DNA of 64,000 nt, from the NCBI GenBank assembly GCA_016777225.1, contig JADHRW010000007.1, positions 5,798-69,797 of the forward strand. Direction: 5' to 3'. The translations under genes were made by a program, and so were the position numbers. Of the stretch, positions 4,992 through 53,812 are shown in pieces. How positions within the stretch are numbered: position 1 is the stretch's first letter; each line of letters begins with the position of its first letter. The notes beneath the pieces were generated by a model that saw only the letters and a program-made list of their open reading frames with translations, ran no database searches and had not been told where the DNA came from. The stretch comes from Candidatus Thalassarchaeum sp. (GTDB lineage: Archaea > Thermoplasmatota > Poseidoniia > Poseidoniales > Thalassarchaeaceae).

Positions 4992-7028
4992 TTAGCATCC
5001 AATTCCGTCAACCAGATTGTCGAGATTCTTATTCATCATTGACATGTAATCATCGTTAGCATCACTTGGAGACATTTCCATAGTGTATAGTATCTCAATT
5101 GTCACACCTGTTTCTTGGACAATGCTATCAACAGCAGTTTGGTCAGTGTACTCTTCAACGAACAAAACTGTAATTCCTTCTTCATTAATGTGTTCAACAA
5201 CATTGGCAATATCTTGGGGAGATGGTTCTCCTTCTGGATCTAATCCATGCATTGTAATAATTTCAATATCGTATTGAACTGACATGTATGAATATGCATT
5301 ATGATTGGCTACAATAGTCTTCTCTTGACCAGCACAAGTACCATCTTCACCAAATGCGGCATTAAAACTATCATCTAATGCACCTAATTGTAGATTATAT
5401 GCTTCAGCATTTTCTGTAAATACTGTATTTCCATCAGGGAATGTCATCATTAACTTCTCTAAAACAACATTAACTTGTGCTTCGAAGGCTAATGGACTTA
5501 ACCAGCTGTGTGGATCATAATTGAAAACTTCTTCATCATCATCAGCGTGAATCTCTCCACCCTCATCATTATGTTCATCTTCCTCATCTGAGTGATCGTC
5601 ATGGTCATCTCCCTCATCTGAGTGGTCGTCATGGTCATCATGATCATCATGACCGCCCTCACCCATCAATACAAAGAGTTCAACATCGTTAGGTAAAGCG
5701 AATCCATAATCACCTTCTACCTCGATATGAATGACTACAGCACCTACTTCATGATGTCCTTCTTCTTCAGAGTGGTCGTCATCACTGTGGTCATCATCAT
5801 CACCGTGGCCATCATCAGTGTGATTATCATCACCGTGGTCATCATCAGTGTGATTATCATCACCGTGGTCATCATCATCACTGTGATCGTCATGTTCATC
5901 CTCAGGGAAGGATAGTGTGTGTGCAACACTTTCAGCATGTATTTCCGGTAGGTTATGATCTTCATGTTCCATCCAGTCATGACCCGCAGACTCACATTCT
6001 TCCTCTGTTGATTCATAGTTTTCATGAGTCTCAGTATTGTGGCACATTTCTTCACCATGGTCTTCATCTTCAGCCCAAACGTGACCTGCTGCCTCACATT
6101 CTTCCTCAGTAGATTCGTAATTTTCATGAGTCTCAGTGTTGTGACACATCTCATCATCATGAATATCATCACCGTGGCCATCATCAGTGTGATTATCATC
6201 ACCGTGGTCATCATCACCATGGTCATCATCACCATGGTCATCATGTTCATGGTGAGCGTGACCACCTAACATCTTGAGAGCGGCCATGTTGAAGTCTTCG
6301 TCATGTTCAGATTCGAACTCAAGAACGTGCTCTCCGGCTTCCATGTGGAATACTTGGATGGTTGTATCAGCTGGACATGCCTCTGGATTCATGATTATTT
6401 TCTCAGCTCCTGCATGTTCATGTCCTTCGTGTTCGTCGTGATCATCATGATCATCGTCACCGTGGTCATCGTGATCATCATCACCGTGGTCATCGTGATC
6501 ATCATCTGAATGGTCATCGTGATCGTCATGTTCATCCACGGACATCATACCAAGTGCAGTACTTTCAAATGGACCATCACTCATCAACTCGCATAGGTCA
6601 GAAACTAATATTGATTCATAATCTAATGTTGTCTGTCCTGTTGGCATTGCATGAGTCATATATGATGGAGGTGCATCATCACCTAGGGATGAAAGTGTAG
6701 ATTCCACCCAAGGCTCAAGGTTTAATCCATGATAAAAGAACAAATCTGCTTGTTGTAAGCGTATCAAGTCTGATGCTGAAGGTTCGTAATCATGTACTGG
6801 AATATTTTCTTGACTCATGAATTCAATTGATACTTGGTCTCCAGCCACTGCTGAAACTAATTCTCCAACGTGGTATGTAGATACCATAACTGTACCATAT
6901 GACTCAATTTCCATATCTGTATCCGAAATTTCAGTATCATCTGAAAGGCATCCTGCTAGGCTCGATAAAACCAAAATTAAACTCACTGATAGGGCTCTTA
7001 CTGTGTTATTCATGAGCCCTCCGCTCAC
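4992..7028 (-). CDS. ZnuA/TroA-type (cluster A-I) metal-binding lipoprotein with a giant His/Asp/Cys-rich insertion
   Basis: Lipobox 'LSSLAGC'. The N-lobe ('VHDYEPSASD', 'ADLFFYHGLNLEPW') and the 'YDPHSWLSP' motif are typical of ZnuA-like proteins. Residues ~165-500 are DH/DDHGDD low complexity plus repeats. SD GGAGGG lies before the ATG. Confidence 0.8.
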   Translation of the reverse strand: MSGGLMNNTVRALSVSLILVLSSLAGCLSDDTEISDTDMEIESYGTVMVSTYHVGELVSAVAGDQVSIEFMSQENIPVHDYEPSASDLIRLQQADLFFYHGLNLEPWVESTLSSLGDDAPPSYMTHAMPTGQTTLDYESILVSDLCELMSDGPFESTALGMMSVDEHDDHDDHSDDDHDDHGDDDHDDHGDDDHDDHDEHEGHEHAGAEKIIMNPEACPADTTIQVFHMEAGEHVLEFESEHDEDFNMAALKMLGGHAHHEHDDHGDDDHGDDDHGDDNHTDDGHGDDIHDDEMCHNTETHENYESTEEECEAAGHVWAEDEDHGEEMCHNTETHENYESTEEECESAGHDWMEHEDHNLPEIHAESVAHTLSFPEDEHDDHSDDDDHGDDNHTDDDHGDDNHTDDGHGDDDDHSDDDHSEEEGHHEVGAVVIHIEVEGDYGFALPNDVELFVLMGEGGHDDHDDHDDHSDEGDDHDDHSDEEDEHNDEGGEIHADDDEEVFNYDPHSWLSPLAFEAQVNVVLEKLMMTFPDGNTVFTENAEAYNLQLGALDDSFNAAFGEDGTCAGQEKTIVANHNAYSYMSVQYDIEIITMHGLDPEGEPSPQDIANVVEHINEEGITVLFVEEYTDQTAVDSIVQETGVTIEILYTMEMSPSDANDDYMSMMNKNLDNLVDGIGC
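5952..6152 (-). repeat. Tandem duplication (2 x 102 nt) encoding 34-aa 'EMCHNTETHENYESTEEECE(A/S)AGH' units inside the binding-protein gene
   Basis: The two consecutive copies are nearly identical at protein level (residues 293-326 and 327-359) and clearly similar at nucleotide level. Confidence 0.8.
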
Positions 7029-18040: not shown

Positions 18041-18274
18041 TCAATCAAGCTTTAAGTTTGGAACATATTTGCCATCGGACGAAGATTCTGCTCCAGTTAC
18101 CTCAACATATGCCTCCCAACAAACGAATTTATCATCTAACACAATTGCTTCTGCAAAAGTCATAGCTTTTCCGGTGATTGCACATACTGGACCTAACTGC
18201 CCAGTGGCTGTAGATAGTTTCGATGCATCTGGCATGATTTGCCCGTGAACAGTCTGTCTATTCATCCTTGCCAT
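18041..18274 (-). CDS. Hypothetical small protein (77 aa)
   Basis: The ORF has no recognised motif, and the competing + strand ORF (18030..18248) is equally unsupported. Strand choice is weak. Confidence 0.3.
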   Translation of the reverse strand: MARMNRQTVHGQIMPDASKLSTATGQLGPVCAITGKAMTFAEAIVLDDKFVCWEAYVEVTGAESSSDGKYVPNLKLD

Positions 18275-18325
18275 TCAACATTCAGAGATACACACAGTTT
18301 TGTATTAGATTTCAACCGCCAAATC

Positions 18326-19186
18326 ATGACAACAGCCCCAACGACTTTTCAAGTTGGCCATTCGCCTGACCCAGATGATGCATTCATGTTCCATGCAATG
18401 ACTACTGGAGCAATAGATACTGGAGGTAAAGATTACCAACATGTTCTACTAGATATTGAAACTTTGAATAAACATGCCATGGAGGGAAAGTATGAGATTT
18501 CGGCTGTGAGTATACATTCATTTCCACTAATTGCAGAAAAATATCATCTAATGAACTGTGGAGCATCCATGGGCGAAGGATATGGACCGATGGTTATATC
18601 CAACAGAGATATGTCAGAAGAAGAAGCGAAAACTAAGACTATTGCAATACCGGGTTTAGGAACTAGCGCCTACCTATCTCTACTCCTAGCTTGGGGTGAT
18701 GTGAAAGTTGAGGTAGTACCTTTTGATGAAATATTACCTAAAGTTGCTAGCGGCGAATATGATGCTGGAGTGATAATACATGAAGGACAGTTGACATGGG
18801 AATCAGAAGGTGTGAAACTAATTCTAGATTTAGGAATCTGGTGGAATGAAAAAACGGGTTTACCTCTTCCTTTAGGTGGAAATGTAGTCAGAAAAGACCT
18901 AGGTATGGAATTGTGTGAAGCATTAACTGAAGATGTGAAAAATAGTATTGTGCATTCATTAGAAAATCCAGATAGTGCTCTAGAATTCGCTAAAAAATGG
19001 GGCCGAGGAATAGACGATGAAACCAACAAAGAATTCGTAGGAATGTACGTTAATGAACGAACTATTGACTATGGTAATGATGGTAGAGACGCAATAAGAT
19101 TATTCCTCAAAGAAGGACAAAGAATAGGAATGGTTGATAGTGAATTAGATGTCGACGGAATACAATTTATTGGATCTGGTGAATAA
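18326..19186 (+). CDS. mqnD: MqnD-like (MqnA/MqnD/SBP family) futalosine-pathway protein, possibly 1,4-dihydroxy-6-naphthoate synthase
   Basis: 'VGHSPDPDDAFMFHAM', 'DIETLNKHAMEGKYEISAVSIH' and 'GASMGEGYGPMVIS' resemble MqnD motifs. I chose the ATG at 18326 rather than the ORF-track start at 18239. Confidence 0.65.
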   Translation: MTTAPTTFQVGHSPDPDDAFMFHAMTTGAIDTGGKDYQHVLLDIETLNKHAMEGKYEISAVSIHSFPLIAEKYHLMNCGASMGEGYGPMVISNRDMSEEEAKTKTIAIPGLGTSAYLSLLLAWGDVKVEVVPFDEILPKVASGEYDAGVIIHEGQLTWESEGVKLILDLGIWWNEKTGLPLPLGGNVVRKDLGMELCEALTEDVKNSIVHSLENPDSALEFAKKWGRGIDDETNKEFVGMYVNERTIDYGNDGRDAIRLFLKEGQRIGMVDSELDVDGIQFIGSGE

Positions 19187-19666
19187 ATGGAAAGAGGAAA
19201 CATTCCAGAAGTCAGCCCCTTTGACTCAGTTGACCCTGCACCTCCAAGTGAGGACTCAAATGTTACCAGATTAAGCAATACATTATCAAATGAAAATGAA
19301 AAAATGTTTCAACGAATGAGAGCATTGTTCGCATTAAGGAATATTGGCGGCCATGATTCAGTAGACGCATTAACGAATGCGTTTAATTCGGAATCTGCTT
19401 TACTTAAACATGAAATCGCCTATGTTTTAGGACAAATGCAAGACCCACATGCAGTTCCATCATTGATAGACAGACTAGCAGATCAATCTGAGGATGTCAT
19501 GGTTAGACATGAGGCAGCTGAAGCATTAGGAGCAATTGGAGACATGATTGCAATTGACACACTAAGAAAGTTTCAAGAAGATCCAGAAATTGTAGTTGCA
19601 GAGTCCTGTGAAGTAGCCATAGATTTACTAAACTATGTTGCAAGTAAAGAATTAAATTATTCATGA
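19187..19666 (+). CDS. Half-size HEAT-repeat protein resembling the C-terminal half of deoxyhypusine hydroxylase (DOHH)
   Basis: 'SVDPAPP', 'RMRALFALRNIGG', 'SALLKHEIAYVLGQMQD', 'VMVRHEAAEALGAIG' and 'ESCEVA' are present. There are two His-Glu motifs (H75-E76, H108-E109). The ATG directly follows the TAA of the MqnD-like gene. Confidence 0.65.
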   Translation: MERGNIPEVSPFDSVDPAPPSEDSNVTRLSNTLSNENEKMFQRMRALFALRNIGGHDSVDALTNAFNSESALLKHEIAYVLGQMQDPHAVPSLIDRLADQSEDVMVRHEAAEALGAIGDMIAIDTLRKFQEDPEIVVAESCEVAIDLLNYVASKELNYS

Positions 19667-20457
19667 GATGATAACCAAGTGATATCGCTATCCATATTGC
19701 AGACAACTTTCAAAAAATGTTCAAGACCTTCTTTTGATTTATCATCTAGTTTATTCTGAACTTCGATAGAAAAATATTCATCGATTCTTGATTCAGAGAA
19801 ACCGAGTTTTTCAGATGTCCGAGAGATTACTTCTTGATTCCAAGATGTATCTTCAAGAAAATGATTATACTGATTAACCATATCTTTTCTTGCTTTAGCT
19901 AACTTGTCTATAGGTGAGTCTTTTCTAGCAGCAAATACACCAAAAACCATTGGGAATCCGGTAATTTTCGTCCATTCTGCACCTAAATCAAGTTTAACTA
20001 AATTAGGATTTTCTTTAGCAGCGATTAAAGCACGATCACCAATTAATAATGCACCATCCGACTTTTCTAGCATAGCAACGAGATCGGGGCCAGTTTCATG
20101 GAATTTAGGGTCTAAATTCTTCAAACCGAGAACCCATTGAAGTAAAGCACGTGATGTTGATGAGTCTGAAGGTAGAGCTATATCTCTCATTTGATTAATT
20201 GGGCGTGTTCCAAATAAAATAACAGAACCTACATCTCCATTACTAACAATACCTAAATCAGGTAAAAGAAGTAATTCATCGGAGTGTTTAGCATAATCTG
20301 CAGCAGGAATAGGAGCAGTCAAACAATCTCTTCTGAGAAGGTGACCCGTTAGCCAAGCAGGAGGTGCTGGTAGAATTTTCCATCTATCCTCTAAGCCATC
20401 AAAAATAGGATCACAATTAGCAAATGCGACCCGACCAAGTACAGTTTCCCAAGACAT
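19657..20457 (-). CDS. mqnA: MqnA-like chorismate dehydratase (futalosine pathway)
   Basis: SBP-like fold with 'GDVGSVILF', 'SDSSTSRALLQWVL', 'GALLIGDRAL' and 'TGFPMVFGVFAARK', as in MqnA. Confidence 0.65.
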   Translation of the reverse strand: MSWETVLGRVAFANCDPIFDGLEDRWKILPAPPAWLTGHLLRRDCLTAPIPAADYAKHSDELLLLPDLGIVSNGDVGSVILFGTRPINQMRDIALPSDSSTSRALLQWVLGLKNLDPKFHETGPDLVAMLEKSDGALLIGDRALIAAKENPNLVKLDLGAEWTKITGFPMVFGVFAARKDSPIDKLAKARKDMVNQYNHFLEDTSWNQEVISRTSEKLGFSESRIDEYFSIEVQNKLDDKSKEGLEHFLKVVCNMDSDITWLSSHE

Positions 20458-20464
20458 AATAACA

Positions 20465-21766
20465 CTACACTAATTGAGCAACTGGAAGATTTCTTCTACC
20501 ATTATCTGGCTTTCTCCGATATCGAGTGAAATCTGTATATGTGGTATTTCTTTTGACTGGAACAGAATCTACATCTTCAATTAGTCTGGCTAATTCATCA
20601 CTATCTGAATCCAATTTAGCTGAACTACCCGCTTCATGCATGATTTCTTCATGATTTACTGTTCCATCAATATCGTCCGCTCCTGAGTTCAAAGCAATAG
20701 ATGCTACATGGCTACCAATATTCATCCGATATGCCTTGATATGAGGGATGTTATCTAACATAATCCTAGATATTGCAATGACCCTTATGATTTCATTCAT
20801 AGACGCTAGTTGGGCTTCTGGAAGACGAGTTTTATCAGGTAAGAATGGATATGGTACAAAGCATTGGAACCCTTTACTTTGAGCTTGCTGATTTCGAAGT
20901 TTCGAAAGATGTATTGCTCTTTCTCTTAGTGTTTCAACAGTTCCAAATAGCATAGTACAATTTGTTTTGATTCCTAGTTCGTGTGCTACTTCATGAATCT
21001 TAAGATATTCATCAGAGGATTCCTTACCTCGGCAAATTCGATTTCTCACTGTATCGACTAATATTTCTGCACCACCTCCAGGTAAAGAGTCAAGTCCTGC
21101 AGACTTTAATCGAGACAGAGTTTCCTTGACTGTTATTCCACTACGACTAGCAATATGCTTGACCTCTACAGCAGTTAGAGATTTGATATGGATATTAGGA
21201 TAAGTATTTTTTGCAGCACTATACAGTTCTTCATAGTAAGTTACTGTCCAATCAGGATGTAGACCACCAACAGAATGTACCTCATCAATCATCTGACTAA
21301 AAGGCTCAATTCGATGCAAATATTCTTCAACTGTTAATGCATAAGCATCATTATGCCTAGGACCTTTTCTAAAAGCACAAAATCGACACGCTAATACACA
21401 AATATTTGTAGTATTTACATGCAAATTATCATTGAAGTAAACGTGTTTTCCGAATCGTGATTTTTTAATTAAATCAGCAAGTGCGGAAACGCCTGAAAGA
21501 TTGTTAGATTCAAATAATTCAAGACCCTTTTCTACACCAACATATCCACCACTACTTAACAAATTAAAGCATTCGACCAAGAGAGGATCTGTCTCAACAG
21601 AAAGTGGCAAGGGAAGTGTTTTCAGGACTTTTCTCCAGTCCGAATTTCCCGAGAGTGGTACATCAATCATGATAACTCCGACCACTGGGTCATGCTTGTC
21701 AAATATCAACCAATGTATTGGACAATAGGAGTTATAGCACTGCAAACCATCAATAGCCAATTTCAA
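20465..21766 (-). CDS. Radical SAM enzyme of the MqnE/MqnC (CofH-like) type
   Basis: CX3CX2C cluster motif in 'NTTNICVLACRFCAF'. Size and context next to mqnA fit. The true start is probably the internal MIDVPL. I cannot separate MqnE from MqnC by eye. Confidence 0.7.
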   Translation of the reverse strand: MKLAIDGLQCYNSYCPIHWLIFDKHDPVVGVIMIDVPLSGNSDWRKVLKTLPLPLSVETDPLLVECFNLLSSGGYVGVEKGLELFESNNLSGVSALADLIKKSRFGKHVYFNDNLHVNTTNICVLACRFCAFRKGPRHNDAYALTVEEYLHRIEPFSQMIDEVHSVGGLHPDWTVTYYEELYSAAKNTYPNIHIKSLTAVEVKHIASRSGITVKETLSRLKSAGLDSLPGGGAEILVDTVRNRICRGKESSDEYLKIHEVAHELGIKTNCTMLFGTVETLRERAIHLSKLRNQQAQSKGFQCFVPYPFLPDKTRLPEAQLASMNEIIRVIAISRIMLDNIPHIKAYRMNIGSHVASIALNSGADDIDGTVNHEEIMHEAGSSAKLDSDSDELARLIEDVDSVPVKRNTTYTDFTRYRRKPDNGRRNLPVAQLV

Positions 21767-24477: not shown

Positions 24478-26028
24478 TCAATACATTCGAGCAAGATGTT
24501 GCTTTCTTGTAGTTAATTTACCAGTAATAGCACATGGCATGGGGGAAGAATATGGTTCAACAGAATCGCCAAGTAGTGCTAATCCAGTAGTTTTTTCTAA
24601 AACTTCAGCGTCGGCATCATTTCCATCAAATGCTAATTCATAGACAATTCCATCTTCAATAGGGGAATTGAGAGCCCAACCAGATTCAGATTGATTAATC
24701 CCTGGGAATTTCTGGACTAACTCTGACATATTAACTGAAGATCGTGTTAGCAATGTTTCAGAAATTTCATCTAAATATTGATTTATTGTTTGAGAAAGAT
24801 TTTCTAAACTCACTTCTATTTTCCCACCTGTTCTTAGTGATAAAACGCACTTATTACCATCCAAATCGCGAGGACCTAATTCTAATCTTATTGGAGCACC
24901 TCTAATTTCCCAATGATAATGTTTACCTCCAGGCCTAATATCTCTATCATCCACATGAACTCTGAAACCAGAAGCCCTCAGTTTCTTAGCTAAATCATGT
25001 ATCTTAGGTATGACTTGTTCATTTATATGTGCAGCAACGGGCATCAAAATTATTTGATATGGAGATACTGATGGAGGGAGTATAAGTCCTGCATCATCAC
25101 CATGCATTCCAACAACTGCACCAAGTAATCTTTCAGACATTCCAAAAGTAGTTTGGTGGCAATTCTGAGTCTTACCATCTGAATCTTCATAATTTAGATC
25201 AAATGCTTGAGCCCATTGATCACGATAATGATGATATGTTGCAATTTGAAGTGTACGGCCATTTGGCATGACTGCATCTACTGCTGTAGTATACCATGCA
25301 CCAGGGAAGGTATCCCAAACTGGTCTCTTAGAAACTAAAACTGGCATACATAGAGATTTCATTAATCTTTGAACAATCTCTGCATCCTGTTCTATTTGGC
25401 GAGTAGCACCATCTTCATCCTTGTGTACAGTATGAGCTTCAAAGAAATGAATCTCTCGAACACGAATAAATGATCGGGTTTGTTTAGTTTCATACCGGAA
25501 TGTATTGACAATCTGGAATGTTTTGAGAGGAAGGTCTGCATGACTCCTCACCCAAAGAGAGAACATCGTATACATTGGAGTTTCAGAAGTAGGTCTAAGG
25601 AACATAGGTATGTCTAATTCATTTTCTCCACCTTTAGTCACCCAATAAACTTCTTTCTTGAATCCAGAGTCTTCTTCATCCATTCTTAACTCTGATGGAT
25701 CAACCCCTAATTCTCTGGCTGCTTTAAGACGTGAAACTAATTGGTTCTCTTTCTCGAGAAGGTCTTCAGGAACTAAAAGTGGAAAATTATATTCTTGGTG
25801 GCCAGACTCTTCCATTTCTTTTCGAGTTAAACCATCAATTAAGCGCATTGTAGACCAACCATATGGCTTCCATACATCCATTCCCTTGATTGGATATCTC
25901 TTATCGACAAGGTCAGAAATCTCTACAATAGCGGGATACCAAGCATTGAAATCAGACTTAGGAGGAATACCTCTCTTAGCCTTACCATGCTTTCCCATGA
26001 TTACTTGCCGCCTTGGATTATCCTTCAA
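24478..26028 (-). CDS. proS: Prolyl-tRNA synthetase (archaeal/eukaryotic type)
   Basis: Class II motifs are present, including 'FLRPTSETPMY' and 'RVREIHFFEAH'. The likely start is the internal MGKHGKAKRG (25998). Confidence 0.9.
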   Translation of the reverse strand: MKDNPRRQVIMGKHGKAKRGIPPKSDFNAWYPAIVEISDLVDKRYPIKGMDVWKPYGWSTMRLIDGLTRKEMEESGHQEYNFPLLVPEDLLEKENQLVSRLKAARELGVDPSELRMDEEDSGFKKEVYWVTKGGENELDIPMFLRPTSETPMYTMFSLWVRSHADLPLKTFQIVNTFRYETKQTRSFIRVREIHFFEAHTVHKDEDGATRQIEQDAEIVQRLMKSLCMPVLVSKRPVWDTFPGAWYTTAVDAVMPNGRTLQIATYHHYRDQWAQAFDLNYEDSDGKTQNCHQTTFGMSERLLGAVVGMHGDDAGLILPPSVSPYQIILMPVAAHINEQVIPKIHDLAKKLRASGFRVHVDDRDIRPGGKHYHWEIRGAPIRLELGPRDLDGNKCVLSLRTGGKIEVSLENLSQTINQYLDEISETLLTRSSVNMSELVQKFPGINQSESGWALNSPIEDGIVYELAFDGNDADAEVLEKTTGLALLGDSVEPYSSPMPCAITGKLTTRKQHLARMY

Positions 26029-31039: not shown

Positions 31040-32743
31040 ATGAGACATATGACAGCAGAGATTCCAGATAGTAGTCTAAGCAAGTTAGATTCATCACAAC
31101 TAAAGATGATGGAAGAAATGTGCTTAGTAGTAGATGATAATGATAATGCCATTAGTTCAGCTAGTAAAATCGATTGCCATAGAGGTGGCGGAATTAGACA
31201 TCGAGCGTTTAGTGTACTCATTTTTGATTCAGAGAATAGATTACTAATGCAACAGAGAGCCGAAGAAAAAATAACGTTCCCTGGAATTTGGGCAAATAGT
31301 TGTTGTAGCCATCCACTAGATATCGAATTTGAGAATGGAGATTCGAAAGAAGGAGTCATTCATGCTAGTAAGCGTAAGATGTTTCAAGAACTTGGTATTC
31401 CAATGGAAGTTTCAGAATCATGGGATTATCACCATATCGGGAGATTCGAATATAGTTGTAGATGGGATGATGAGTGGATTGAACATGAAATTGACCATGT
31501 ATTAATAGTCAGAGCTAATGTGGAATTATCAATAAATAAAAATGAAATAAAAGAAACTAAGTGGCTTAATCACAAACAAATCATTGAGATGCTAGGTGGG
31601 GAAAATGAATGGTCGAACATGATTATCGCACCATGGTTTAGAATGATTTGGAAACATTTCATTTCACCTCATTACCCTAATATGGATGATTTAATTAATT
31701 CAAATAATGAAAAAATTGTTAATTGTGGTAGGTTGTCATTGAAAGCTGGGTCTTCAAGTGGAAAGGAATTAAAACAAGCACTTAGTAAACATAAGGATGT
31801 TGTTGAAAAAGAAATAATGACTTCAATGAACAAAATAAAACAAAATAGATTGCATGGTGCAATGACTCACTTATTCGCTGGAGGAGGAAAAAGATACAGA
31901 GCTATCCTACCAAGGCTGGTTGGAGAGGCAACAGGAGCCGCACATGATGGCCACTATACTCTTGGTTCTAGTATAGAAATAATTCATAATTTCACACTAG
32001 TACATGACGATATTATGGATCAAGATCCAATTAGAAGAGGACTGAATGCAGTACATATCGAATATGATGATGCAACTGCAATAAATGCTGGAGATGCAAT
32101 GTTAGCAGTAGGATTTGAAATTCTGGCAGATTCGGAAGAAATTAGTCCAGAAAATTTGAAATTTTTAGTTCAGTCAATTGGTGAGATGGTTAGAAGAGTA
32201 GCTGAAGGGCAACAAGAAGACTTCGACTTTGAACAAAGAGAATATGTAAGTGAAGATGAATACATTGCTATGATAGCTGGAAAAACTAGTGCAATGTTCG
32301 AGACATGTGCTGAAACAGGAGCCAAACTTGCAGGTGCTAGTCCTAAAACTGTAGAAAATATGGCGGATTGGGGGCTCAAATTAGGCCTATGTTTCCAACT
32401 TATGGATGACCTAATAGACATTACTGGAGATACAGAGACTCTGGGTAAGCCCGCAGGATCAGATGTCGTTCAAGGAAAGAAAACATTGATTGCAATTCAT
32501 GCACTAGATAGTGATAATGATCTACCTGCATTTACAAAAGTTTACGGCAAAGGTGAATGCTCAGATAATGATTTGAATGCAGCTGTAAAAGAACTAAGAA
32601 ATAATGGTTCAATTGACTATGCTATGGATAGAGCAATGAGATACCATTCAGAAGCACATCAGATTTTAGATGGACTTGAACCCTCACCTGCATTAGAAGT
32701 TTTAAGACAATTAACTGATATGCAATTAACTAGAATTAATTGA
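31040..32743 (+). CDS. idi: Fusion protein: type-1 isopentenyl-diphosphate isomerase (Nudix-fold IDI) plus (all-E) geranylgeranyl diphosphate synthase
   Basis: Residues ~1-215 carry 'HRAFSVLIFDSENRLLMQQRAEEKITFPGIWANSCCSHPL', 'EHEIDHVL' and 'APWF'. Residues ~245-567 carry 'GGKRYRA', the first Asp-rich motif 'VHDDIMDQD' (32006..) and the second, 'FQLMDDLID'. It is a single uninterrupted ORF with GGAG before the ATG. Confidence 0.8.
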   Translation: MRHMTAEIPDSSLSKLDSSQLKMMEEMCLVVDDNDNAISSASKIDCHRGGGIRHRAFSVLIFDSENRLLMQQRAEEKITFPGIWANSCCSHPLDIEFENGDSKEGVIHASKRKMFQELGIPMEVSESWDYHHIGRFEYSCRWDDEWIEHEIDHVLIVRANVELSINKNEIKETKWLNHKQIIEMLGGENEWSNMIIAPWFRMIWKHFISPHYPNMDDLINSNNEKIVNCGRLSLKAGSSSGKELKQALSKHKDVVEKEIMTSMNKIKQNRLHGAMTHLFAGGGKRYRAILPRLVGEATGAAHDGHYTLGSSIEIIHNFTLVHDDIMDQDPIRRGLNAVHIEYDDATAINAGDAMLAVGFEILADSEEISPENLKFLVQSIGEMVRRVAEGQQEDFDFEQREYVSEDEYIAMIAGKTSAMFETCAETGAKLAGASPKTVENMADWGLKLGLCFQLMDDLIDITGDTETLGKPAGSDVVQGKKTLIAIHALDSDNDLPAFTKVYGKGECSDNDLNAAVKELRNNGSIDYAMDRAMRYHSEAHQILDGLEPSPALEVLRQLTDMQLTRIN

Positions 32744-37694: not shown

Positions 37695-39902
37695 TCAATC
37701 TTGGTAGTTATCTTCGCCAGGTACTTCTACTTTCAGACCCTTTCTCTGTCTAATTTCAGCAGTAACTTTGTGGAATAGAGCTGCAGGAAGTTGAACGAAA
37801 CCTGCATTCTCAGTGTTCCAAACTGCTCTACCCTGACTTGCTGCTCTGATGTCATTTGAGAAGCCGAAAGATTCTGCAACTGGCATTTTACCAATTACAC
37901 TTGCAGTTCCACCGTCAACAGGCATGTCTTCGATTATTCCACGACGTGTTGTTAACTCACGAGTGACTCCACCAATTACATCGTTAGGGGCGTCGATACG
38001 AATATTCTGTATAGGCTCAAAGATTACAGATCCTGATCTAAGAACTGCACCCTTAACCGCATTACGAACTGCAGGAATTGTTTGTGCAGGACCACGATGA
38101 ATTGCATCTTCGTGGAGTTTAGCATCAACTAGACGGACTAATACACCCATCAATGGTTCTTCTGCAGTAGGACCTTTCTTACATACATCATTGAAACCTT
38201 CAATCATAAGTTCTCTTGTTTCGTGAAGATTTTGAATACCTTTAGTATCATTGACAAAGACATTTGTTCCATGGATAGCATATATCTTTCTCATCAAATC
38301 TTTGTCCATTCCAAACTCAGCAAATTTATTACCAGTCTCTTTAGCATCTTTTGTTCTAACAGGCCCATCACCAAATTGACCTTCTCTTAGCGCATTGATA
38401 ACATCTTGAGGTAAAGGTTCACACTCGATATAGAATCTGTTATGCCTATTTGGAGATTTACCTTCAAACGGACGTCCACTATTATTACGTTCAATGGATT
38501 CACGATATACTACAATTGGCTCACTGACCTTTACTTTGATATTCTGTTCCTCTTGCATACGGAAAATTGTAATCTCAAGATGCAATTCTCCCATACCTGC
38601 CAATAGAGCTTCTCCAGTTTCCTGATTTGTTGTAACTTGTAAAGATGCATCAGCCTTAGCAAGACCACGAAGAGCATCAATGAATTTAGGTAAGTCTTTC
38701 ATTGATTTTGGTTCGACAGCTACTGTAACAACAGGTTCTGAATAATGCCTTATTGCTTCGAATGGGGTTGCATCTTGATCTCTAGAGATCGTTACACCAG
38801 CTGCTGCACTACGTACACCAGTTAATGCCGCAATATTTCCTGCAGATACTTGAGACACTTGGATTCTATCTCCACCCACCATCATACTGACTTGCTGGAC
38901 CCTCTCAGGTTTAGCCGCACCAATTGCCCAAACAGTTTCACCATGTTTAATTGAACCAGAATAAACTCGTCCTACAGCTACTTCTCCTGCGTGAGGATCC
39001 ATCCAGATTTTTGTAATCATTAATTGAAGTGGCCCGTCTGGGTCTGTGTTAAGCATTGATTGACCAACTTCGGACTCTAAGTCTCCTTGCCAAATATTAG
39101 GGATACGATATTTCTGAGAAACTAGTGGTGAAGGAAGCTCTCCTACAGCCATGTCAAGTAAGACACGGTGAACTGGTGCTTTCTTAGCTAATTCTTTTTG
39201 TTCATCATTATGACAGTGTTCAAAAATATCTGTAAAGTTCAATCCTGATTTCTTCATGTAAGGAATTGACATTCCCCAATTATAGTAAGCTGAACCAAAA
39301 GCAACTGTTCCTTTCTGAACAGAAACTTGCCATTCTTTAGCAAGTTCAGCAGGAGCGAATGTTTCAATCAACTTATTGACTTTAACAATGATTTTCTCGA
39401 ATCTCTTCATCATTTCTGGACCATCAATTTGTAATTCATTGATTAATCTATCAACTTTATTGATGAATAATACCGGGCGTACTTTTTCTTTCAATGCTTG
39501 ACGTACAACAGTTTCTGTCTGAGGCATAGTACCTTCAACAGCACAGGCAAGGATGATACAACCATCAACTGCTCTCATTGCACGAGTAACGTCACCGCCG
39601 AAATCAACGTGACCAGGAGTATCGATTAAATTAATGAGATAATCGTCACCTTCAATTTCGTGAACCATTGACGCACTTGCTGCATTAATGGTAATTCCAC
39701 GCGCACTCTCTTGTTGATCGAAATCAAGTACTCTTGATTTACCTGCCAAATCTTCTGACATCATACCCGCGCCAGCAATTAGATTGTCAGACAAAGTAGT
39801 CTTCCCATGATCAATGTGTGCTGCAATTGCAAGATTTCTAATTTTTTCTCTAACGTGCATTACTTCTGTTGCTCGCTTTATGTTGTCCTCTTTACGACCC
39901 AT
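37695..39902 (-). CDS. fusA: Translation elongation factor aEF-2
   Basis: GTPase motifs 'AHIDHGKTT', 'DTPGHVDF' and 'NKVDR'. The diphthamide-site region is 'DAIHRGPAQ'. SD AAGGTGAT lies before the ATG. Confidence 0.95.
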   Translation of the reverse strand: MGRKEDNIKRATEVMHVREKIRNLAIAAHIDHGKTTLSDNLIAGAGMMSEDLAGKSRVLDFDQQESARGITINAASASMVHEIEGDDYLINLIDTPGHVDFGGDVTRAMRAVDGCIILACAVEGTMPQTETVVRQALKEKVRPVLFINKVDRLINELQIDGPEMMKRFEKIIVKVNKLIETFAPAELAKEWQVSVQKGTVAFGSAYYNWGMSIPYMKKSGLNFTDIFEHCHNDEQKELAKKAPVHRVLLDMAVGELPSPLVSQKYRIPNIWQGDLESEVGQSMLNTDPDGPLQLMITKIWMDPHAGEVAVGRVYSGSIKHGETVWAIGAAKPERVQQVSMMVGGDRIQVSQVSAGNIAALTGVRSAAAGVTISRDQDATPFEAIRHYSEPVVTVAVEPKSMKDLPKFIDALRGLAKADASLQVTTNQETGEALLAGMGELHLEITIFRMQEEQNIKVKVSEPIVVYRESIERNNSGRPFEGKSPNRHNRFYIECEPLPQDVINALREGQFGDGPVRTKDAKETGNKFAEFGMDKDLMRKIYAIHGTNVFVNDTKGIQNLHETRELMIEGFNDVCKKGPTAEEPLMGVLVRLVDAKLHEDAIHRGPAQTIPAVRNAVKGAVLRSGSVIFEPIQNIRIDAPNDVIGGVTRELTTRRGIIEDMPVDGGTASVIGKMPVAESFGFSNDIRAASQGRAVWNTENAGFVQLPAALFHKVTAEIRQRKGLKVEVPGEDNYQD

Positions 39903-41175: not shown

Positions 41176-42477
41176 TTGAAATTGAATCGACATTGGGTTG
41201 TTAACATGGCGTTCCGCGATTTACTTGTTGATGTTGAAAATATTGGTACTGAAACTAGCGTAATACATGGAATAATGAACAGCTCAAAGCAAATGAACCA
41301 TCGACCACTTGTTTTTTCAAACCTAACAGAAGCTCCCGGACATTCTGCTGCACTTAACGTACTAACTAGAAAAAGAATCTGTGAAACTTTTAACGTAAGT
41401 CCAGGTGAACTTATCGATATTTTGGCTTGGGCAATGAATAACCCATGTGAACCCGAAATTATAGATGCAAATTTAGCGCCAGTTATGGCTAATACAATGG
41501 AAGAAGTAGATTTAGAAAAAATTCCAATCCCATGGCATTATCCCGAAGATAGAGGAAGATACCAATCTGCATCCGTAATCATAGCTCAGTATAATGGAAT
41601 AAGAAATATGTCATTCCATAGACAATTCCTGAGAGATGGGAAGCATACGGTATCGAGGTTTGTCCCTAGACATCTAAGGACAATGACCGATCTTGCAGCA
41701 AGTGATGGAGAGGGCGTCGATATTGCAGTAGTAAATGGTGCAGACGCTGTTGTATTGTTAGCAGCAGCCATGTCATTTACTGTAAATCTAGACGAATTGA
41801 CTGTAGCAGCTGCATTACACCAAAAATTACACGGAAAACCACTAAAATTAGTTGAATTAGCTAATGGAATACAAGTTCCAGCTAATGCAGAATATGCAAT
41901 GCAAGCAAAAATAACTCTAGAAAGAGATGACGAAGGACCTTATGTCGACATTACAGGAACTGTTGATGATGTAAGACAAGAAAATGTGATACAGTACAAT
42001 GCGATACATCACAGGAATAATCCTGTATTTCATGCACTCATACCAGGAGAAGTCGAGCATAGAACACTAATGGGTATGCCAAGAGCACCTACAATCAAGA
42101 ATGCTGTATCAGAAGTAGTCCCTTGTAGTGATGTATACCTTACAGATGGTGGCTGTGGTTGGCTATCATCAGTTGTACAAATAATCCCTCAGAAAGAAGG
42201 AGATGGTGTGAAAGCAATTCATGCTGCTTTACAAGGGCATCCTTCAATGAAACAAGTAATAGTCGTAGATGAGGATATAGATACGTCAGATCCGGTAAGA
42301 GTTGAATGGGCACTAATGACTCGGTGGCAACCTGACAAAGACACCATCATACTTTCAAATCAAAAAGGTTCGAGTTTAGACCCTAGTAGATCAGAAGATG
42401 GTTTGACGAGTAAGATAGGGATGGATGCAAGTTTACCCCCCGGAATAGACAAATCACCTTATGAATCAGTACTTTGA
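41176..42477 (+). CDS. UbiD-family (prFMN-dependent) decarboxylase, short form
   Basis: UbiD-like sequence throughout ('RNMSFHRQ', 'GPYVDITG', 'AIHAALQGHPSMKQVIVVDEDID'). It is ~423 aa from the likely start MAFRDL (41206). Confidence 0.75.
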   Translation: MKLNRHWVVNMAFRDLLVDVENIGTETSVIHGIMNSSKQMNHRPLVFSNLTEAPGHSAALNVLTRKRICETFNVSPGELIDILAWAMNNPCEPEIIDANLAPVMANTMEEVDLEKIPIPWHYPEDRGRYQSASVIIAQYNGIRNMSFHRQFLRDGKHTVSRFVPRHLRTMTDLAASDGEGVDIAVVNGADAVVLLAAAMSFTVNLDELTVAAALHQKLHGKPLKLVELANGIQVPANAEYAMQAKITLERDDEGPYVDITGTVDDVRQENVIQYNAIHHRNNPVFHALIPGEVEHRTLMGMPRAPTIKNAVSEVVPCSDVYLTDGGCGWLSSVVQIIPQKEGDGVKAIHAALQGHPSMKQVIVVDEDIDTSDPVRVEWALMTRWQPDKDTIILSNQKGSSLDPSRSEDGLTSKIGMDASLPPGIDKSPYESVL

Positions 42478-49354: not shown

Positions 49355-50029
49355 ATGAGAGTGGCAGTTCTAGCCTCGGGAGGAAAAGATTCCACCTATG
49401 CCTCATGGTGGGCCCAAATGCAAGGTTGGTCACTAGAAGCACTGATTACTGTAAAGATTGAAGGCGATGATTCGATGATGTTTCAATTACAAAATACCGA
49501 AGTTACAGGGTATCAAGCCGAATCGATAGGGACGAAATTAATTCGAGTTATTTCAAGCGGTGTGGAAAATGATGAAATAGATGAATTAGAAAATGCTATT
49601 CGTAATTCCGTTGGAAATGAAATAGATGCATTGGTAGTCGGAGCATTAAGGTCCGACTATCAAAAAACAAGAATTGAAAGAATGTGTGAGAAACTAGGAA
49701 TTATTTCATTTTGCCCTATGTGGCATCATGATCCTGAACTACATATGAATTCTCTAATAAATCACGGGTTTGATGTAAGAATTATTTCTGTATCTTCAGA
49801 AGGCCTCGATGAAAGTTGGCTAGGTAGGAAAATTACTGGAGAAAGTCTGGCTGAATTAATTCAACTATCTCGAAAATATAGATTCAATTTAGATGGAGAG
49901 GGAGGAGAATTCGAAACTATTACTCTCGATGCTCCACATTTCAAAAAATCAATTCATTGCGAGGGTGAAATATCATGGGACGGCGTAAGAGGCACTTGGA
50001 ATATCACCAAAATTCATCTATCAACATAG
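49355..50029 (+). CDS. PP-loop ATP pyrophosphatase of the MJ0570/Dph6 type (probable diphthine-ammonia ligase)
   Basis: PP-loop 'AVLASGGKDS', 'GALRSDYQKTRIE' and 'DGEGGEFETI' are present. Confidence 0.7.
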   Translation: MRVAVLASGGKDSTYASWWAQMQGWSLEALITVKIEGDDSMMFQLQNTEVTGYQAESIGTKLIRVISSGVENDEIDELENAIRNSVGNEIDALVVGALRSDYQKTRIERMCEKLGIISFCPMWHHDPELHMNSLINHGFDVRIISVSSEGLDESWLGRKITGESLAELIQLSRKYRFNLDGEGGEFETITLDAPHFKKSIHCEGEISWDGVRGTWNITKIHLST

Positions 50030-52543: not shown

Positions 52544-53812
52544 CTAATTTTTTCCTGAACTAGTAGGAGCACCTAATATCAATGGTTTCGAAAGATGTCT
52601 ACGTTGAGATGCCGATGGTTCTACCCAATTATTAGTAAGTTCAATCCCAGAGAGGTTAATTTCATCATATAACCAATACTTTTTACTGACTTTTTGACAA
52701 TTCAGGCATCTTAATGGTTGCTTGGAGCCCGCACTCCTCATAGTTTTACCATTACAACAAGTAGGCCTTCCAGTTATTCTTGGTAAAGATGATTCAATAC
52801 TCAATCTTTCTAGGTGTATACTTCCATCAGGTGATTCTAAACCTAACCAATTAATTCGATCACCTGGTATTAATTTTCTTAGAAGACGATTCACATCACC
52901 ACCCTCTTTAAAAGCAACAAGCGTGATATTACGACCATTCGAAAAAACCTCTAAAGCAGAATGTGCACCTTTAGTTTCTACAGGTTTAGTTAATACTGTT
53001 GCAGTAGAAAAACCAAGAATATGGTCATCACTCAACTGATTTGTTCTGTGAATTGCATATCTTTCACATTTTTCAACATCTGATTGTGACTGAAGCCATA
53101 GATGTGCCGATAAAACTGCTTGAGAATTTGACCCTCGAATTCCATAAAGAACAGGGCATGGAGTTCTTGGAGCAATTAGGCCTTTGTCAGCAGTAGGATC
53201 TCGATTGACGAAAGTTTCAGGATGAAGTGATTCCATTTCTTTGACTCTAGATGAAGTAACCTTTCTTTGAGTACCAATTTTTTCAGGGAATCTCCAAGAA
53301 ATCAACTCCCAAGTAGAATCATCTGAAGGATTCCAAGCCATAGCAGAAGACGCCCCAATTATTCCCCAATCTGAATTTTCAAGACTTAGTATGTTCACGC
53401 CATCAAGACTATTCCTACGTTTATCGAGATCTACTTTATGGCGTACTGCTTGCCAATAAAAATCTTCATTTAGTTTATTGAGTGTATAGATTAATGCAGG
53501 AGATGTGAGACTGTTTTCTTCTATTTTTAATTCAATCACAAGTTGAGAAAAAAAGTTTGACAACAACTTTTCAAGAATATTAATAGATGATTTTGGACAT
53601 TTTAATATGCATGCCAAAGCACCATTACCTCTGGTTCTTCGTTCAGCGAAAGGCCATAGCCTGACGAGACGTCGTTCAATGACTTCAAAATTATCAAGTT
53701 GAGATATCTCTCCTAATAAGTCATCAAATGTAGCTGTAGTACACCCTGAATCAGGATTATCAGTATCATCTAGTCCAATCCAAACACGACATGAATCGGC
53801 GTGTCCGACCAA
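52544..53812 (-). CDS. tiaS: tRNA(Ile2) 2-agmatinylcytidine synthetase TiaS
   Basis: N-terminal 'WIGLDDTDNPDSGCTT' (the TiaS kinase-domain motif) and a C-terminal zinc ribbon ('CCNGKTMRSAG...CLNCQ'). TTG start. Confidence 0.75.
   Translation of the reverse strand: MVGHADSCRVWIGLDDTDNPDSGCTTATFDDLLGEISQLDNFEVIERRLVRLWPFAERRTRGNGALACILKCPKSSINILEKLLSNFFSQLVIELKIEENSLTSPALIYTLNKLNEDFYWQAVRHKVDLDKRRNSLDGVNILSLENSDWGIIGASSAMAWNPSDDSTWELISWRFPEKIGTQRKVTSSRVKEMESLHPETFVNRDPTADKGLIAPRTPCPVLYGIRGSNSQAVLSAHLWLQSQSDVEKCERYAIHRTNQLSDDHILGFSTATVLTKPVETKGAHSALEVFSNGRNITLVAFKEGGDVNRLLRKLIPGDRINWLGLESPDGSIHLERLSIESSLPRITGRPTCCNGKTMRSAGSKQPLRCLNCQKVSKKYWLYDEINLSGIELTNNWVEPSASQRRHLSKPLILGAPTSSGKN

What the first reader, a model, noticed from the sequence alone, without database searches (positions are those of the whole stretch)
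19187..19666. Stand-alone half-size homologue of deoxyhypusine hydroxylase (DOHH) in an archaeal genome
The 159-aa ORF carries, in the same order, the strings I associate with eukaryotic DOHH: SVDPAPP, RMRALFALRNIGG, SALLKHEIAYVLGQMQD, VMVRHEAAEALGAIG, DPEIVVAESCEVA. Eukaryotic DOHH has about 300 aa arranged as two symmetric 4-HEAT halves. Each half contributes two His-Glu motifs to a diiron centre. This ORF has exactly one half's worth (H75-E76, H108-E109). It begins with the SVDPAPP string, which in eukaryotes sits in the linker before the C-terminal half. To my knowledge archaea that make hypusine have no identified hydroxylase, so a half-size protein that could dimerise is a plausible candidate. 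Alternatively it is an ancestral single-domain form, or a truncated eukaryote-derived acquisition. The upstream gene is a complete MqnD-like ORF, so no N-terminal half is hidden by a frameshift.
Basis: partly seen in the sequence, partly recalled or inferred. Interest (0 to 1): 0.75.

Follow-up and report, generated by a model that had tools for sequence, protein, structure and literature searches.

The report
Half-size archaeal deoxyhypusine hydroxylase homologue
Marine Group II archaea carry a strongly conserved 159-residue protein that equals one half of the eukaryotic enzyme that completes the hypusine modification of translation factor 5A, an enzyme the literature says has no archaeal counterpart.

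Summary
ORF 19187-19666 (+) encodes 159 aa that match human deoxyhypusine hydroxylase (DOHH, PDB 4D4Z) at E=4.9e-75. That is far above generic HEAT repeats. One chain carries exactly one arm of the enzyme: four helical hairpins, H75-E76 and H108-E109 at the canonical 33-residue spacing, the substrate glycine G82, the linker motif SVDPAPP and the C-terminal tail. The family is single-copy, always half-size and under strong purifying selection (dN/dS about 0.02-0.07). It appeared in 398 places across species-representative prokaryotic genomes. Every genuine one inspected was Poseidoniales or a related high-GC Thermoplasmatota lineage. The three "bacterial" full-length hits are eukaryotic DNA. 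In half-domain trees the archaeal proteins form a third clade between eukaryotic N- and C-halves and are not nested in C-halves. The best reading is a homodimeric diiron hydroxylase acting on deoxyhypusinated aIF5A. This is inferred: dimerisation, iron binding and substrate are untested. The conserved operon with MqnD in low-GC genomes, absent in the high-GC clade, keeps a quinone-linked rival alive. JGI auto-labels these proteins "deoxyhypusine monooxygenase". No paper I could search recognises them. Reviews still state that archaea lack a DOHH orthologue.

The parts
19187..19666 (+). Coding sequence of the 159-aa half-size DOHH homologue (one 4-HEAT arm plus N-terminal arm and C-terminal tail)
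   Evidence: ORF. Human DOHH 4D4Z at E=4.9e-75. AlphaFold model has pLDDT 90.6 and eight helices forming four hairpins. Foldseek top hit is 4D4Z, TM 0.83, 48% identity. dN/dS is 0.02-0.07 against orthologues.
19226..19246 (+). N-terminal arm motif S14-V-D-P-A-P-P20, equivalent to the eukaryotic inter-domain linker
   Evidence: Aligns to human 'SVDPAPP'. Conserved as [GDET]S[VT]DPAP[PA] in 145 distinct archaeal copies. D and P are invariant in 18 eukaryotic DOHHs. Disordered in the monomer model, pLDDT 57-64. Human disease variant P152L maps to P20 (PMC11203672; mapping).
19409..19414 (+). First His-Glu motif, H75-E76. Equivalent to human H56-E57 / H207-E208: iron ligand His and substrate-binding Glu.
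   Evidence: Alignment. Invariant in A1 and in all 170 distinct cores. Residue roles from PMC9117371.
19430..19432 (+). G82 in the LGQ motif, equivalent to human G214 (and its N-half counterpart), implicated in binding the deoxyhypusine side chain
   Evidence: Alignment. Invariant. Role from PMC9117371.
19508..19513 (+). Second His-Glu motif, H108-E109. Equivalent to human H89-E90 / H240-E241, both iron ligands. It lies 33 residues after the first motif, as in both human arms.
   Evidence: The motif is MVRHEAAEA[LM]G in 139 of 145 copies.
19631..19663 (+). C-terminal tail (N149-S159, conserved Y158), matching the tail after the eukaryotic C-half
   Evidence: Shared 'S..[LF].Y' ending with eukaryotic DOHH. 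Y158 is invariant. Human Y280* truncation of the tail lowers activity (PMC11203672).
18239..19186 (+). Upstream operon partner: MqnD-type futalosine-pathway enzyme, whose stop codon abuts the DOHH-half start. The likely true start is the ATG near 18326.
   Evidence: PF02621 at E=1.1e-65. Adjacent and co-oriented in 222 of 228 loci with GC<0.60, but in 2 of 23 with GC>=0.60. Junction offsets run from -25 to +14 nt.
19657..20457 (-). Convergent neighbour (context only): MqnA-type protein whose 3' end overlaps the DOHH-half stop by 10 nt, followed by MqnC-type radical SAM (20465-21766)
   Evidence: PF02621 at E=2.2e-47; Radical_SAM plus CofH_C. This arrangement is specific to Thalassarchaeaceae-type loci.

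Best explanation
The ORF encodes one arm of a deoxyhypusine hydroxylase. Two copies most likely associate as a symmetric homodimer. Each copy would donate H75, H108 and E109 to bind one iron, so that the pair rebuilds the diiron centre that eukaryotic DOHH forms between its two fused arms. E76, E109 and G82 from each chain would line the pocket for the deoxyhypusine side chain. The conserved N-terminal SVDPAPP arm would pack against the partner subunit, as the linker does between the eukaryotic arms. The dimer would use O2 to hydroxylate deoxyhypusine on aIF5A, giving hypusine in these aerobic surface-ocean archaea. Shown here: specific homology to DOHH, one-arm architecture, conservation of every catalytic position, strong purifying selection, and lineage-wide presence as a half only. 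Inferred: dimerisation, iron binding, substrate, and the role of the arm. On origin, the archaeal halves form a separate clade that joins the branch between eukaryotic N- and C-halves. They therefore look like descendants of a pre-duplication (or at least pre-LECA) form. A recent truncated eukaryotic gene would look different.
For: DOHH-specific similarity: E=4.9e-75 to 4D4Z, with both arms aligned. In a scan of 1.84 billion representatives, the best non-repeat hits are ~300-aa two-stretch proteins at 41-50% identity. Those that could be named are eukaryotic DOHH: Geosiphon, EukProt, and JGI 'deoxyhypusine monooxygenase'. The confident model has four hairpins. 4D4Z is the best structural match at TM 0.83, against 0.63-0.66 for generic alphaRep/HEAT proteins. 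H75, E76, G82, H108 and E109 are invariant. Both HE motifs are present in all 80 loci found by similarity alone. Their roles as iron and substrate ligands, and the 'symmetrical dyad' in which the arms cooperate to form the binuclear site, come from PMC9117371 and PMC8153317. Human pathogenic positions P152, N184 and I249 correspond to conserved P20, N52 and I117. dN/dS is 0.02-0.07. Only halves are found in genuine prokaryotic DNA, in 398 places. There is no second copy in the window. DHS and aIF5A are reported in all archaeal genomes (PMC5178350, PMC6105217). MGII live in oxygen-rich surface water (PMC10783094 abstract), which suits an O2-dependent enzyme. Intermediate position in half-domain comparisons: distances to N are 0.86-0.92, to C 0.79-0.85, while N to C is 1.12. 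The full-data NJ tree recovers three clades.
Against: There is no experimental or structural evidence for a dimer. The tandem-fusion proxy folded poorly (pLDDT 56.6). No DHS or aIF5A gene lies near the gene in the window or in any of 275 loci. I could not verify their presence in these genomes directly. The only conserved linkage is to MqnD, a quinone-pathway enzyme. Whether MGII aIF5A carries hypusine or deoxyhypusine is unknown. One arm alone offers a 2-His-1-carboxylate set, so a monomeric mononuclear enzyme is conceivable. The tree has modest bootstrap support on 111 columns (archaeal clade 60%, or 80% allowing three stray leaves). The arm and tail are shared specifically with the C-half, which also fits derivation from a C-half.
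Confidence: 0.55

Rival explanations
1. The protein keeps the DOHH fold and iron chemistry but acts on another substrate connected with menaquinone (futalosine pathway) metabolism. It would be co-expressed with MqnD as an O2-dependent oxygenase or accessory subunit.
For: MqnD lies immediately upstream on the same strand in 222 of 228 low-GC loci, with abutting or overlapping stop and start codons. The pair stays together although the flanking genes are rearranged between Thalassarchaeaceae-type and Poseidoniaceae-type loci. MqnA and MqnC are also nearby in the window.
Against: The high-GC clade keeps the gene in a different, housekeeping context (iPGM, M28 peptidase, half-DOHH, TerB-like, PurH, PurN) with no Mqn gene. 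L050 and L054 keep it although MqnD is missing at that place. The known futalosine steps need no O2-dependent hydroxylation (established pathway knowledge). About 50% identity to eukaryotic DOHH, including the substrate-binding Glu and Gly, the arm and the tail, argues for an unchanged substrate.
Confidence: 0.13
2. It hydroxylates deoxyhypusine but works as a monomer with a mononuclear non-heme iron bound by H75, H108 and E109 (a 2-His-1-carboxylate set), not as a diiron homodimer.
For: One arm supplies exactly two His and one Glu. The monomer model is compact and confident on its own. No dimer evidence was obtained.
Against: In the characterised enzyme the two arms cooperate to form a binuclear centre with 2 Fe per protein, and loss of ligands in either arm abolishes iron binding and activity (PMC9117371, PMC8153317). 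The conserved but intrinsically disordered N-terminal arm is easier to explain as a partner-binding element.
Confidence: 0.1
3. On origin: the gene is a eukaryote-to-archaeon transfer of DOHH that was truncated to the linker plus C-half, and later drifted towards N-half-like residues because one chain must play both roles.
For: The N-terminal SVDPAPP arm and the C-terminal tail are features of the eukaryotic C-half. The full-length query scores higher against C-halves in 46 of 54 species, mean +21.6 bits. Distribution is restricted to one archaeal lineage in every sample taken.
Against: Over the HEAT core the preference nearly vanishes: +4 bits, 34 of 54. Archaeal halves are much closer to N-halves (0.86-0.92) than C-halves are (1.12). 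They are not nested in the C crown. The full-data NJ tree gives three clades. The gene is present in both Poseidoniales families and in a high-GC sister group, so any transfer must be old.
Confidence: 0.3
4. It is a non-catalytic HEAT-repeat scaffold, or a decaying remnant with no enzymatic role.
For: Pfam and NCBI annotation see only HEAT repeats.
Against: The iron and substrate residues are invariant across roughly 170 distinct sequences. dN/dS is 0.02-0.07. Length is constant and the frame is intact in hundreds of genomes.
Confidence: 0.04

Closest known systems
Eukaryotic deoxyhypusine hydroxylase (human DOHH, PDB 4D4Z/4D50; yeast Lia1; EC 1.14.99.29)
   Same: HEAT-hairpin fold. 45-50% identity to each arm. 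Two His-Glu motifs per arm, 33 residues apart. The LGQ glycine. The SVDPAPP motif before the arm. The C-terminal tail.
   Different: Four HEAT hairpins and 159 aa instead of eight and about 300. It cannot form a diiron site from one chain and so must oligomerise. It carries the 'linker' as a free N-terminal arm. It is encoded in archaea, mostly in an operon with MqnD. It forms its own clade between N- and C-halves.
PBS-lyase-type HEAT repeat proteins (Pfam HEAT_PBS/HEAT_2; NblB, CpcE/CpcF; MTH187 1TE4; artificial alphaRep proteins)
   Same: Same repeat type and overall solenoid. Pfam assigns the ORF to these repeat models. alphaReps are the next structural matches.
   Different: These proteins lack the paired His-Glu motifs. 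The curated NblB and CpcE models score 38 and 30 bits against cut-offs of 300 and 330. CpcE structure 5N3U matches at only E=2e-4.
Alternative routes proposed for archaeal/protist hypusine (bifunctional DHS as claimed for Trichomonas; unidentified oxidoreductases co-purifying with Sulfolobus aIF5A)
   Same: They address the same missing step, hydroxylation of deoxyhypusine where no DOHH was known (PMC6105217).
   Different: These are unrelated proteins. The Thermoplasmatota protein is a direct DOHH homologue. It was not seen outside that lineage in my samples, so it does not explain the crenarchaeal cases.

Membership tests
Deoxyhypusine hydroxylase (DOHH) | Sequence similarity specific to DOHH, well above generic HEAT repeats | tested here: met
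   E=4.9e-75, 253.8 bits to human DOHH. 41-50% identity to ~300-aa eukaryotic DOHHs.
Deoxyhypusine hydroxylase (DOHH) | Eight HEAT hairpins arranged as two four-hairpin arms (symmetrical dyad) in one polypeptide | tested here: not met
   159 aa with eight helices forming four hairpins, which is one arm only. No second arm upstream, downstream or elsewhere in the window. All genuine prokaryotic copies are halves.
Deoxyhypusine hydroxylase (DOHH) | [quoted passage not shown] | tested here: inconclusive
   Each chain has two (H75-E76, H108-E109) at the canonical spacing, and they are invariant. Four would need two chains, which is not shown.
Deoxyhypusine hydroxylase (DOHH) | Substrate-binding residues (Glu of each HE motif and the Gly of LGQ) | tested here: met
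   E76, E109 and G82 are invariant. Roles from PMC9117371.
Deoxyhypusine hydroxylase (DOHH) | Three-dimensional similarity to the solved enzyme | tested here: met
   Foldseek top hit is 4D4Z at TM 0.83 (normalised to the query) and 48-49% identity.
Deoxyhypusine hydroxylase (DOHH) | Assembly of a diiron centre between two arms | tested here: inconclusive
   Tandem-fusion proxy model: pLDDT 56.6, pTM 0.46, unusable. No multimer predictor was available.
Deoxyhypusine hydroxylase (DOHH) | O2-dependent hydroxylation of deoxyhypusine on (a/e)IF5A | not testable with these tools
   Needs biochemistry or mass spectrometry.
Deoxyhypusine hydroxylase (DOHH) | Co-occurrence with DHS and IF5A in the same genome | not tested
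   Neither gene is in the window or in 275 loci. Whole genomes could not be scanned. The literature reports both in all archaeal genomes.
PBS-lyase HEAT-like repeat proteins (HEAT_PBS / HEAT_2) | Pfam repeat models above gathering score | tested here: met
   HEAT_2 at 74.8 bits (cut-off 27.7). HEAT_PBS at 66.1 bits (cut-off 20.9). This is a repeat class and does not define a function.
Phycobilin lyase / NblB equivalogs | NCBIfam equivalog score above curated cut-off | tested here: not met
   NblB 38.1 bits against 300. CpcE 29.7 bits against 330.

The most novel reading that the evidence does not exclude
The Poseidoniales/Thermoplasmatota protein is a living representative of the single-arm, homodimeric ancestor of DOHH. 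On this reading eukaryotic DOHH arose by tandem duplication and fusion of such a gene, and an archaeal lineage outside Asgard makes true hypusine with it. This would be the first archaeal deoxyhypusine hydroxylase and a direct view of how the eukaryotic enzyme was built.
Probability: 0.3. Interest if true: 0.85.

Novelty: new variant of a known kind. Interest (0 to 1): 0.7.

Why it matters
For about twenty years the hypusine field has stated that archaea have deoxyhypusine synthase but no DOHH orthologue (PMC5178350, PMC6105217, PMC8153317). That leaves open both how some archaea make hypusine and where the eukaryotic enzyme came from. This finding supplies an unambiguous DOHH homologue in one of the most abundant archaeal groups of the surface ocean, in a form (one arm per chain) that has not been described. 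It turns two open questions into simple experiments. First, does a 159-aa protein dimerise around a diiron centre and hydroxylate aIF5A? Second, is the eight-repeat eukaryotic enzyme a fused duplicate of such a unit? It also offers a minimal, symmetric scaffold for studying the unusually stable peroxo-diiron intermediate of DOHH. The limits are that the family does not explain hypusine in Crenarchaeota and that the hosts are uncultured.

Tried and rejected
1. A homodimer proxy made by folding a head-to-tail fusion of the ORF without an alignment gave pLDDT 56.6 and is uninformative.

2. The first collection scan with the double-HE DNA pattern had one N too many, which broke the frame, and found nothing. 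The corrected pattern worked.

3. Apparent full-length DOHH in bacteria (Putridiphycobacter, Acidobacteria and Verrucomicrobiaceae assemblies) was rejected. The neighbours are COP9-CSN3, PCI and PLAC8, and the genes are split by introns, so the DNA is eukaryotic.

4. A hidden fusion or readthrough between MqnD and the ORF (same frame, single TAA) was rejected. Relatives show every frame relation and no fusion.

5. A heterodimer partner was sought and not found. There is no second copy in the window. One MAG pair is an assembly duplicate, and another (65% identity) may be a mixed bin.

6. A search for DHS or aIF5A next to the gene found nothing in the window or in 275 loci.

7. NJ trees with the first, uncleaned eukaryote set were unresolved. 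Cleaning the set and adding the high-GC clade gave three clades with moderate support. No maximum-likelihood program was available.

8. Literature searches for any paper linking DOHH or hypusine to MGII, Poseidoniales or Euryarchaeota, or describing an archaeal or homodimeric DOHH, found none. PMC1324997 (Park 2006) is not held.

Full report
**Observation**

The window has an ATG-to-TGA ORF at 19187-19666 on the + strand. Pfam recognises only generic HEAT_2 and HEAT_PBS repeats. The curated phycobilin-lyase and NblB models score about ten-fold below their cut-offs.

Against all PDB sequences the best hit by far is human deoxyhypusine hydroxylase 4D4Z, at E=4.9e-75. Residues 2-150 align to the linker plus C-terminal arm (135.6 bits). 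Residues 25-151 align to the N-terminal arm (116.7 bits). H75-E76 and H108-E109 align with the human His-Glu motifs and are 33 residues apart, as in both human arms. G82 aligns with the substrate-binding glycine. S14-P20 (SVDPAPP) aligns with the human inter-domain linker.

A DNA pattern encoding the double-HE signature matches the window once, at 19409-19524, and never in 100 shuffles.

**Structure**

With a 33-sequence family alignment (A1), AlphaFold gives a confident model: pLDDT 90.6, pTM 0.81. It has eight helices forming four hairpins, and a low-confidence N-terminal arm over residues 1-24. Foldseek against the PDB ranks 4D4Z first (TM 0.83 normalised to the query, 48-49% identity). Generic alphaRep/HEAT proteins follow at TM 0.63-0.66.

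**Who has it**

The word-indexed search of 5.8 billion proteins found 3970 relatives. The best 120 are all 156-161 aa. They come from Poseidoniales (Marine Group II), Thalassarchaeaceae and 'Euryarchaeota archaeon' MAGs. NCBI calls them 'HEAT repeat domain-containing protein'. JGI automatically calls them 'deoxyhypusine monooxygenase'.

The exhaustive scan of 1.84 billion cluster representatives returned ~300-aa proteins with two matched stretches at 41-50% identity, giant multi-HEAT proteins, and only two half-size clusters. The ~300-aa proteins that could be named are eukaryotic DOHH: Geosiphon pyriformis, EukProt, and JGI 'deoxyhypusine monooxygenase'. Both half-size clusters are Thalassarchaeaceae.

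In one genome per GTDB species:
- A similarity scan gave 104 loci, and the best 80 were all Poseidoniales-type.
Every listed hit was Poseidoniales or Thermoplasmatota, or a bacterial-named bin with MGII gene order.
- A scan seeded with an alignment of full-length eukaryotic DOHH gave 398 relatives.

Three of the best 80 in that last scan looked full-length and 'bacterial'. L198 is flanked by COP9 signalosome subunit 3, PCI and PLAC8 genes and has an intron-like insertion. L199 and L201 have the gene split across frames. These are eukaryotic DNA under bacterial names. I therefore saw no genuine prokaryotic full-length DOHH. I also saw no hit outside Thermoplasmatota. Because outputs are capped at 80-120 rows, absence elsewhere is not proven.

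**Conservation**

All 197 loci then in hand keep both HE motifs, including the 80 found by similarity alone. The sequences are [LK/LR]HE[ILV]AYV[LM]GQ and MVRHEAAEA[LM]G. All keep the arm motif [GDET]S[VT]DPAP[PA]. Lengths cluster at 155-177 aa. In A1 the residues H75, E76, G82, H108 and E109 and many flanking positions are invariant.

Against six orthologues at 84-89% protein identity, synonymous sites are saturated while dN is 0.06-0.10. That gives dN/dS of 0.02-0.07.

The human disease variants P152L, N184K and I249T (PMC11203672) map to P20, N52 and I117, which are invariant or nearly so in A1. The mapping uses the alignment with a SEQRES offset of 5 anchored on H207. Loss of the human C-terminal tail (Y280*) lowers activity. 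The archaeal proteins keep a matching tail with an invariant Y158.

**Gene context**

In the window the gene follows an MqnD-type gene whose TAA abuts the ATG. It converges on MqnA- and MqnC-type genes. MqnD is the immediate co-oriented upstream neighbour in 222 of 228 loci with GC below 0.60. Stop and start codons sit within -25 to +14 nt in all frame relations, with no fusions.

The pair survives a rearrangement between two layouts:
- Thalassarchaeaceae-type loci: PriS- MqnD+ half+ MqnA- MqnC-.
- Poseidoniaceae-type loci: MqnC+ MqnA+ ... MqnD+ half+ PriS+.

A high-GC group (0.62-0.73 GC, 49-59% identity, proteins of 168-189 aa) places the gene elsewhere. Its order is iPGM, a secreted M28 peptidase, the half, a TerB-like ORF, PurH, then PurN. 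Only 2 of the 23 loci with GC of 0.60 or more have MqnD adjacent.

No DHS or aIF5A gene is near the half in the window or in any locus. Context therefore gives no support for the aIF5A link. It gives a lineage-restricted hint towards quinone metabolism.

**Relationship to the two eukaryotic arms**

I split 54 eukaryotic DOHHs at the linker. The full query scores higher against C-halves, mean 117 versus 95 bits, in 46 of 54 species. Over the HEAT core alone the difference almost disappears: 92.6 versus 88.6 bits, 34 of 54. The C-half affinity therefore lies mainly in the shared arm and tail.

With a cleaned set of 53 N-halves, 53 C-halves, 13 low-GC and 18 high-GC archaeal halves over 111 columns, the Kimura distances are:
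- Archaeal to N: 0.86-0.92.
- Archaeal to C: 0.79-0.85.
- N to C: 1.12.
- C to C: 0.76.

The full-data NJ tree recovers N, C and archaeal clades. Bootstrap support is 29%, 40% and 60% strictly. It is 63%, 86% and 80% if up to three stray leaves are allowed. The first, uncleaned set was less resolved.

The archaeal clade thus joins the internal branch between the N and C crowns and is not nested among modern C-halves. That is what a pre-duplication lineage would show. It is also compatible with a very old transfer followed by symmetry-driven change. I could not run maximum likelihood or root the tree.

**Mechanism**

The literature describes DOHH as a symmetrical dyad of two four-HEAT arms. Its four His-Glu motifs cooperate to hold two irons. 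H56, H89, E90, H207, H240 and E241 anchor the metals. E57, E90, E208, E241 and two glycines bind the deoxyhypusine side chain (PMC9117371; PMC8153317).

One archaeal chain supplies exactly one arm's set. The simplest working model is a homodimer that rebuilds the diiron site on a true two-fold axis. The conserved but unstructured N-terminal arm would clasp the partner. O2-dependent hydroxylation of aIF5A-deoxyhypusine would be the reaction. MGII are surface-ocean aerobes.

I rate this model at 0.55. The rivals are a different, quinone-linked substrate (0.13), a monomeric mononuclear enzyme (0.10) and a non-catalytic scaffold (0.04). The dimer test I could run, a tandem fusion without an alignment, failed technically.

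**Comparison with what is known, and novelty**

The protein works like, and is clearly homologous to, DOHH. It fails one defining feature of the family as described, which is eight repeats with four HE motifs in one chain. I therefore file it as a new variant of a known kind, not as a plain member.

Papers from 2016, 2018 and 2021 state that no DOHH orthologue has been found in archaea. Full-text searches found no paper connecting DOHH or hypusine with MGII, Poseidoniales or Euryarchaeota, or describing a half-size or homodimeric DOHH. The only prior recognition I found is JGI's automatic product name.

The finding does not solve the crenarchaeal hypusine puzzle. It does give the field its first archaeal DOHH candidate and a plausible picture of the enzyme before its internal duplication.

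Noticed in passing
L198 (OZ245997.1, 1015593-1022501): A 6.9-Mb 'chromosome 1' deposited as Putridiphycobacter sp. (Bacteroidota) carries COP9 signalosome subunit 3, PCI and PLAC8 genes and an intron-interrupted full-length DOHH. The sequence is eukaryotic and mislabelled in the species-representative genome collection.
   Followed up: partly
L199 (MNJR01000114.1) and L201 (JAIYDP010000069.1): Contigs in an 'Acidobacteria' MAG and a 'Verrucomicrobiaceae' MAG hold DOHH split into exons in different frames. This is eukaryotic contamination of bacterial bins.
   Followed up: partly
L069, L076, L084, L094, L235, L237: Contigs with Poseidoniales or high-GC Thermoplasmatota gene order sit in bins named 'uncultured bacterium', Salipiger bermudensis, Salinimicrobium, Rhodobiaceae, Halobacteriales and 'bacterium'. 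They are likely mis-binned or mislabelled.
   Followed up: partly
L080, L092, L096, L103, L142, L157, L172, L206, L219, L249, L260: A high-GC (0.62-0.73) Thermoplasmatota clade keeps the half-DOHH in a conserved block: iPGM, secreted M28 peptidase, half-DOHH, TerB-like ORF, PurH, PurN, FolC-like. I did not determine the taxonomic rank of this clade.
   Followed up: partly
L086 and L093 (MAG ARS60, NYZH01): One MAG holds two different Poseidoniaceae-type half-DOHH genes that are 65% identical. They may be true paralogues (a possible heterodimer) or two species in one bin.
   Followed up: no
window 18239-19666: MqnD and the half-DOHH are in the same reading frame, separated by a single TAA that abuts the ATG. 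Relatives show all frame relations, so this is not a disrupted fusion. It does suggest translational coupling.
   Followed up: yes
window 31040-32743 (+): A 567-aa ORF fuses an N-terminal NUDIX domain to a polyprenyl synthetase domain.
   Followed up: no
window 41176-42477 (+): A UbiD-type decarboxylase lies 20 kb from the MqnD/MqnA/MqnC genes. It is possibly the late decarboxylation step of the futalosine pathway, so the pathway genes are scattered.
   Followed up: no
window 4992-7028 (-): A ZnuA-type metal-binding protein is unusually long at 678 aa. The Pfam match comes in two stretches, the best covering residues 472-674. It sits next to ABC-3 permease and ATPase genes.
   Followed up: no
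window 56049-61355 (-): A 1768-aa Lhr-type helicase (DEAD, Helicase_C, WH_Lhr, DEAD_assoc) has about 950 residues beyond the recognised domains.
   Followed up: no
window 24478-26028 (-): The prolyl-tRNA synthetase starts MGKHGKAKRG, a chance look-alike of the GKHG-AK hypusine loop of IF5A. It is the only such string in the window.
   Followed up: yes
window 37695-39902, 49355-50029, 52544-53812: Other genes for translation-factor and tRNA modification lie in the same window: EF-2, a Dph6-type diphthamide synthase and TiaS. None is adjacent to the half-DOHH.
   Followed up: no
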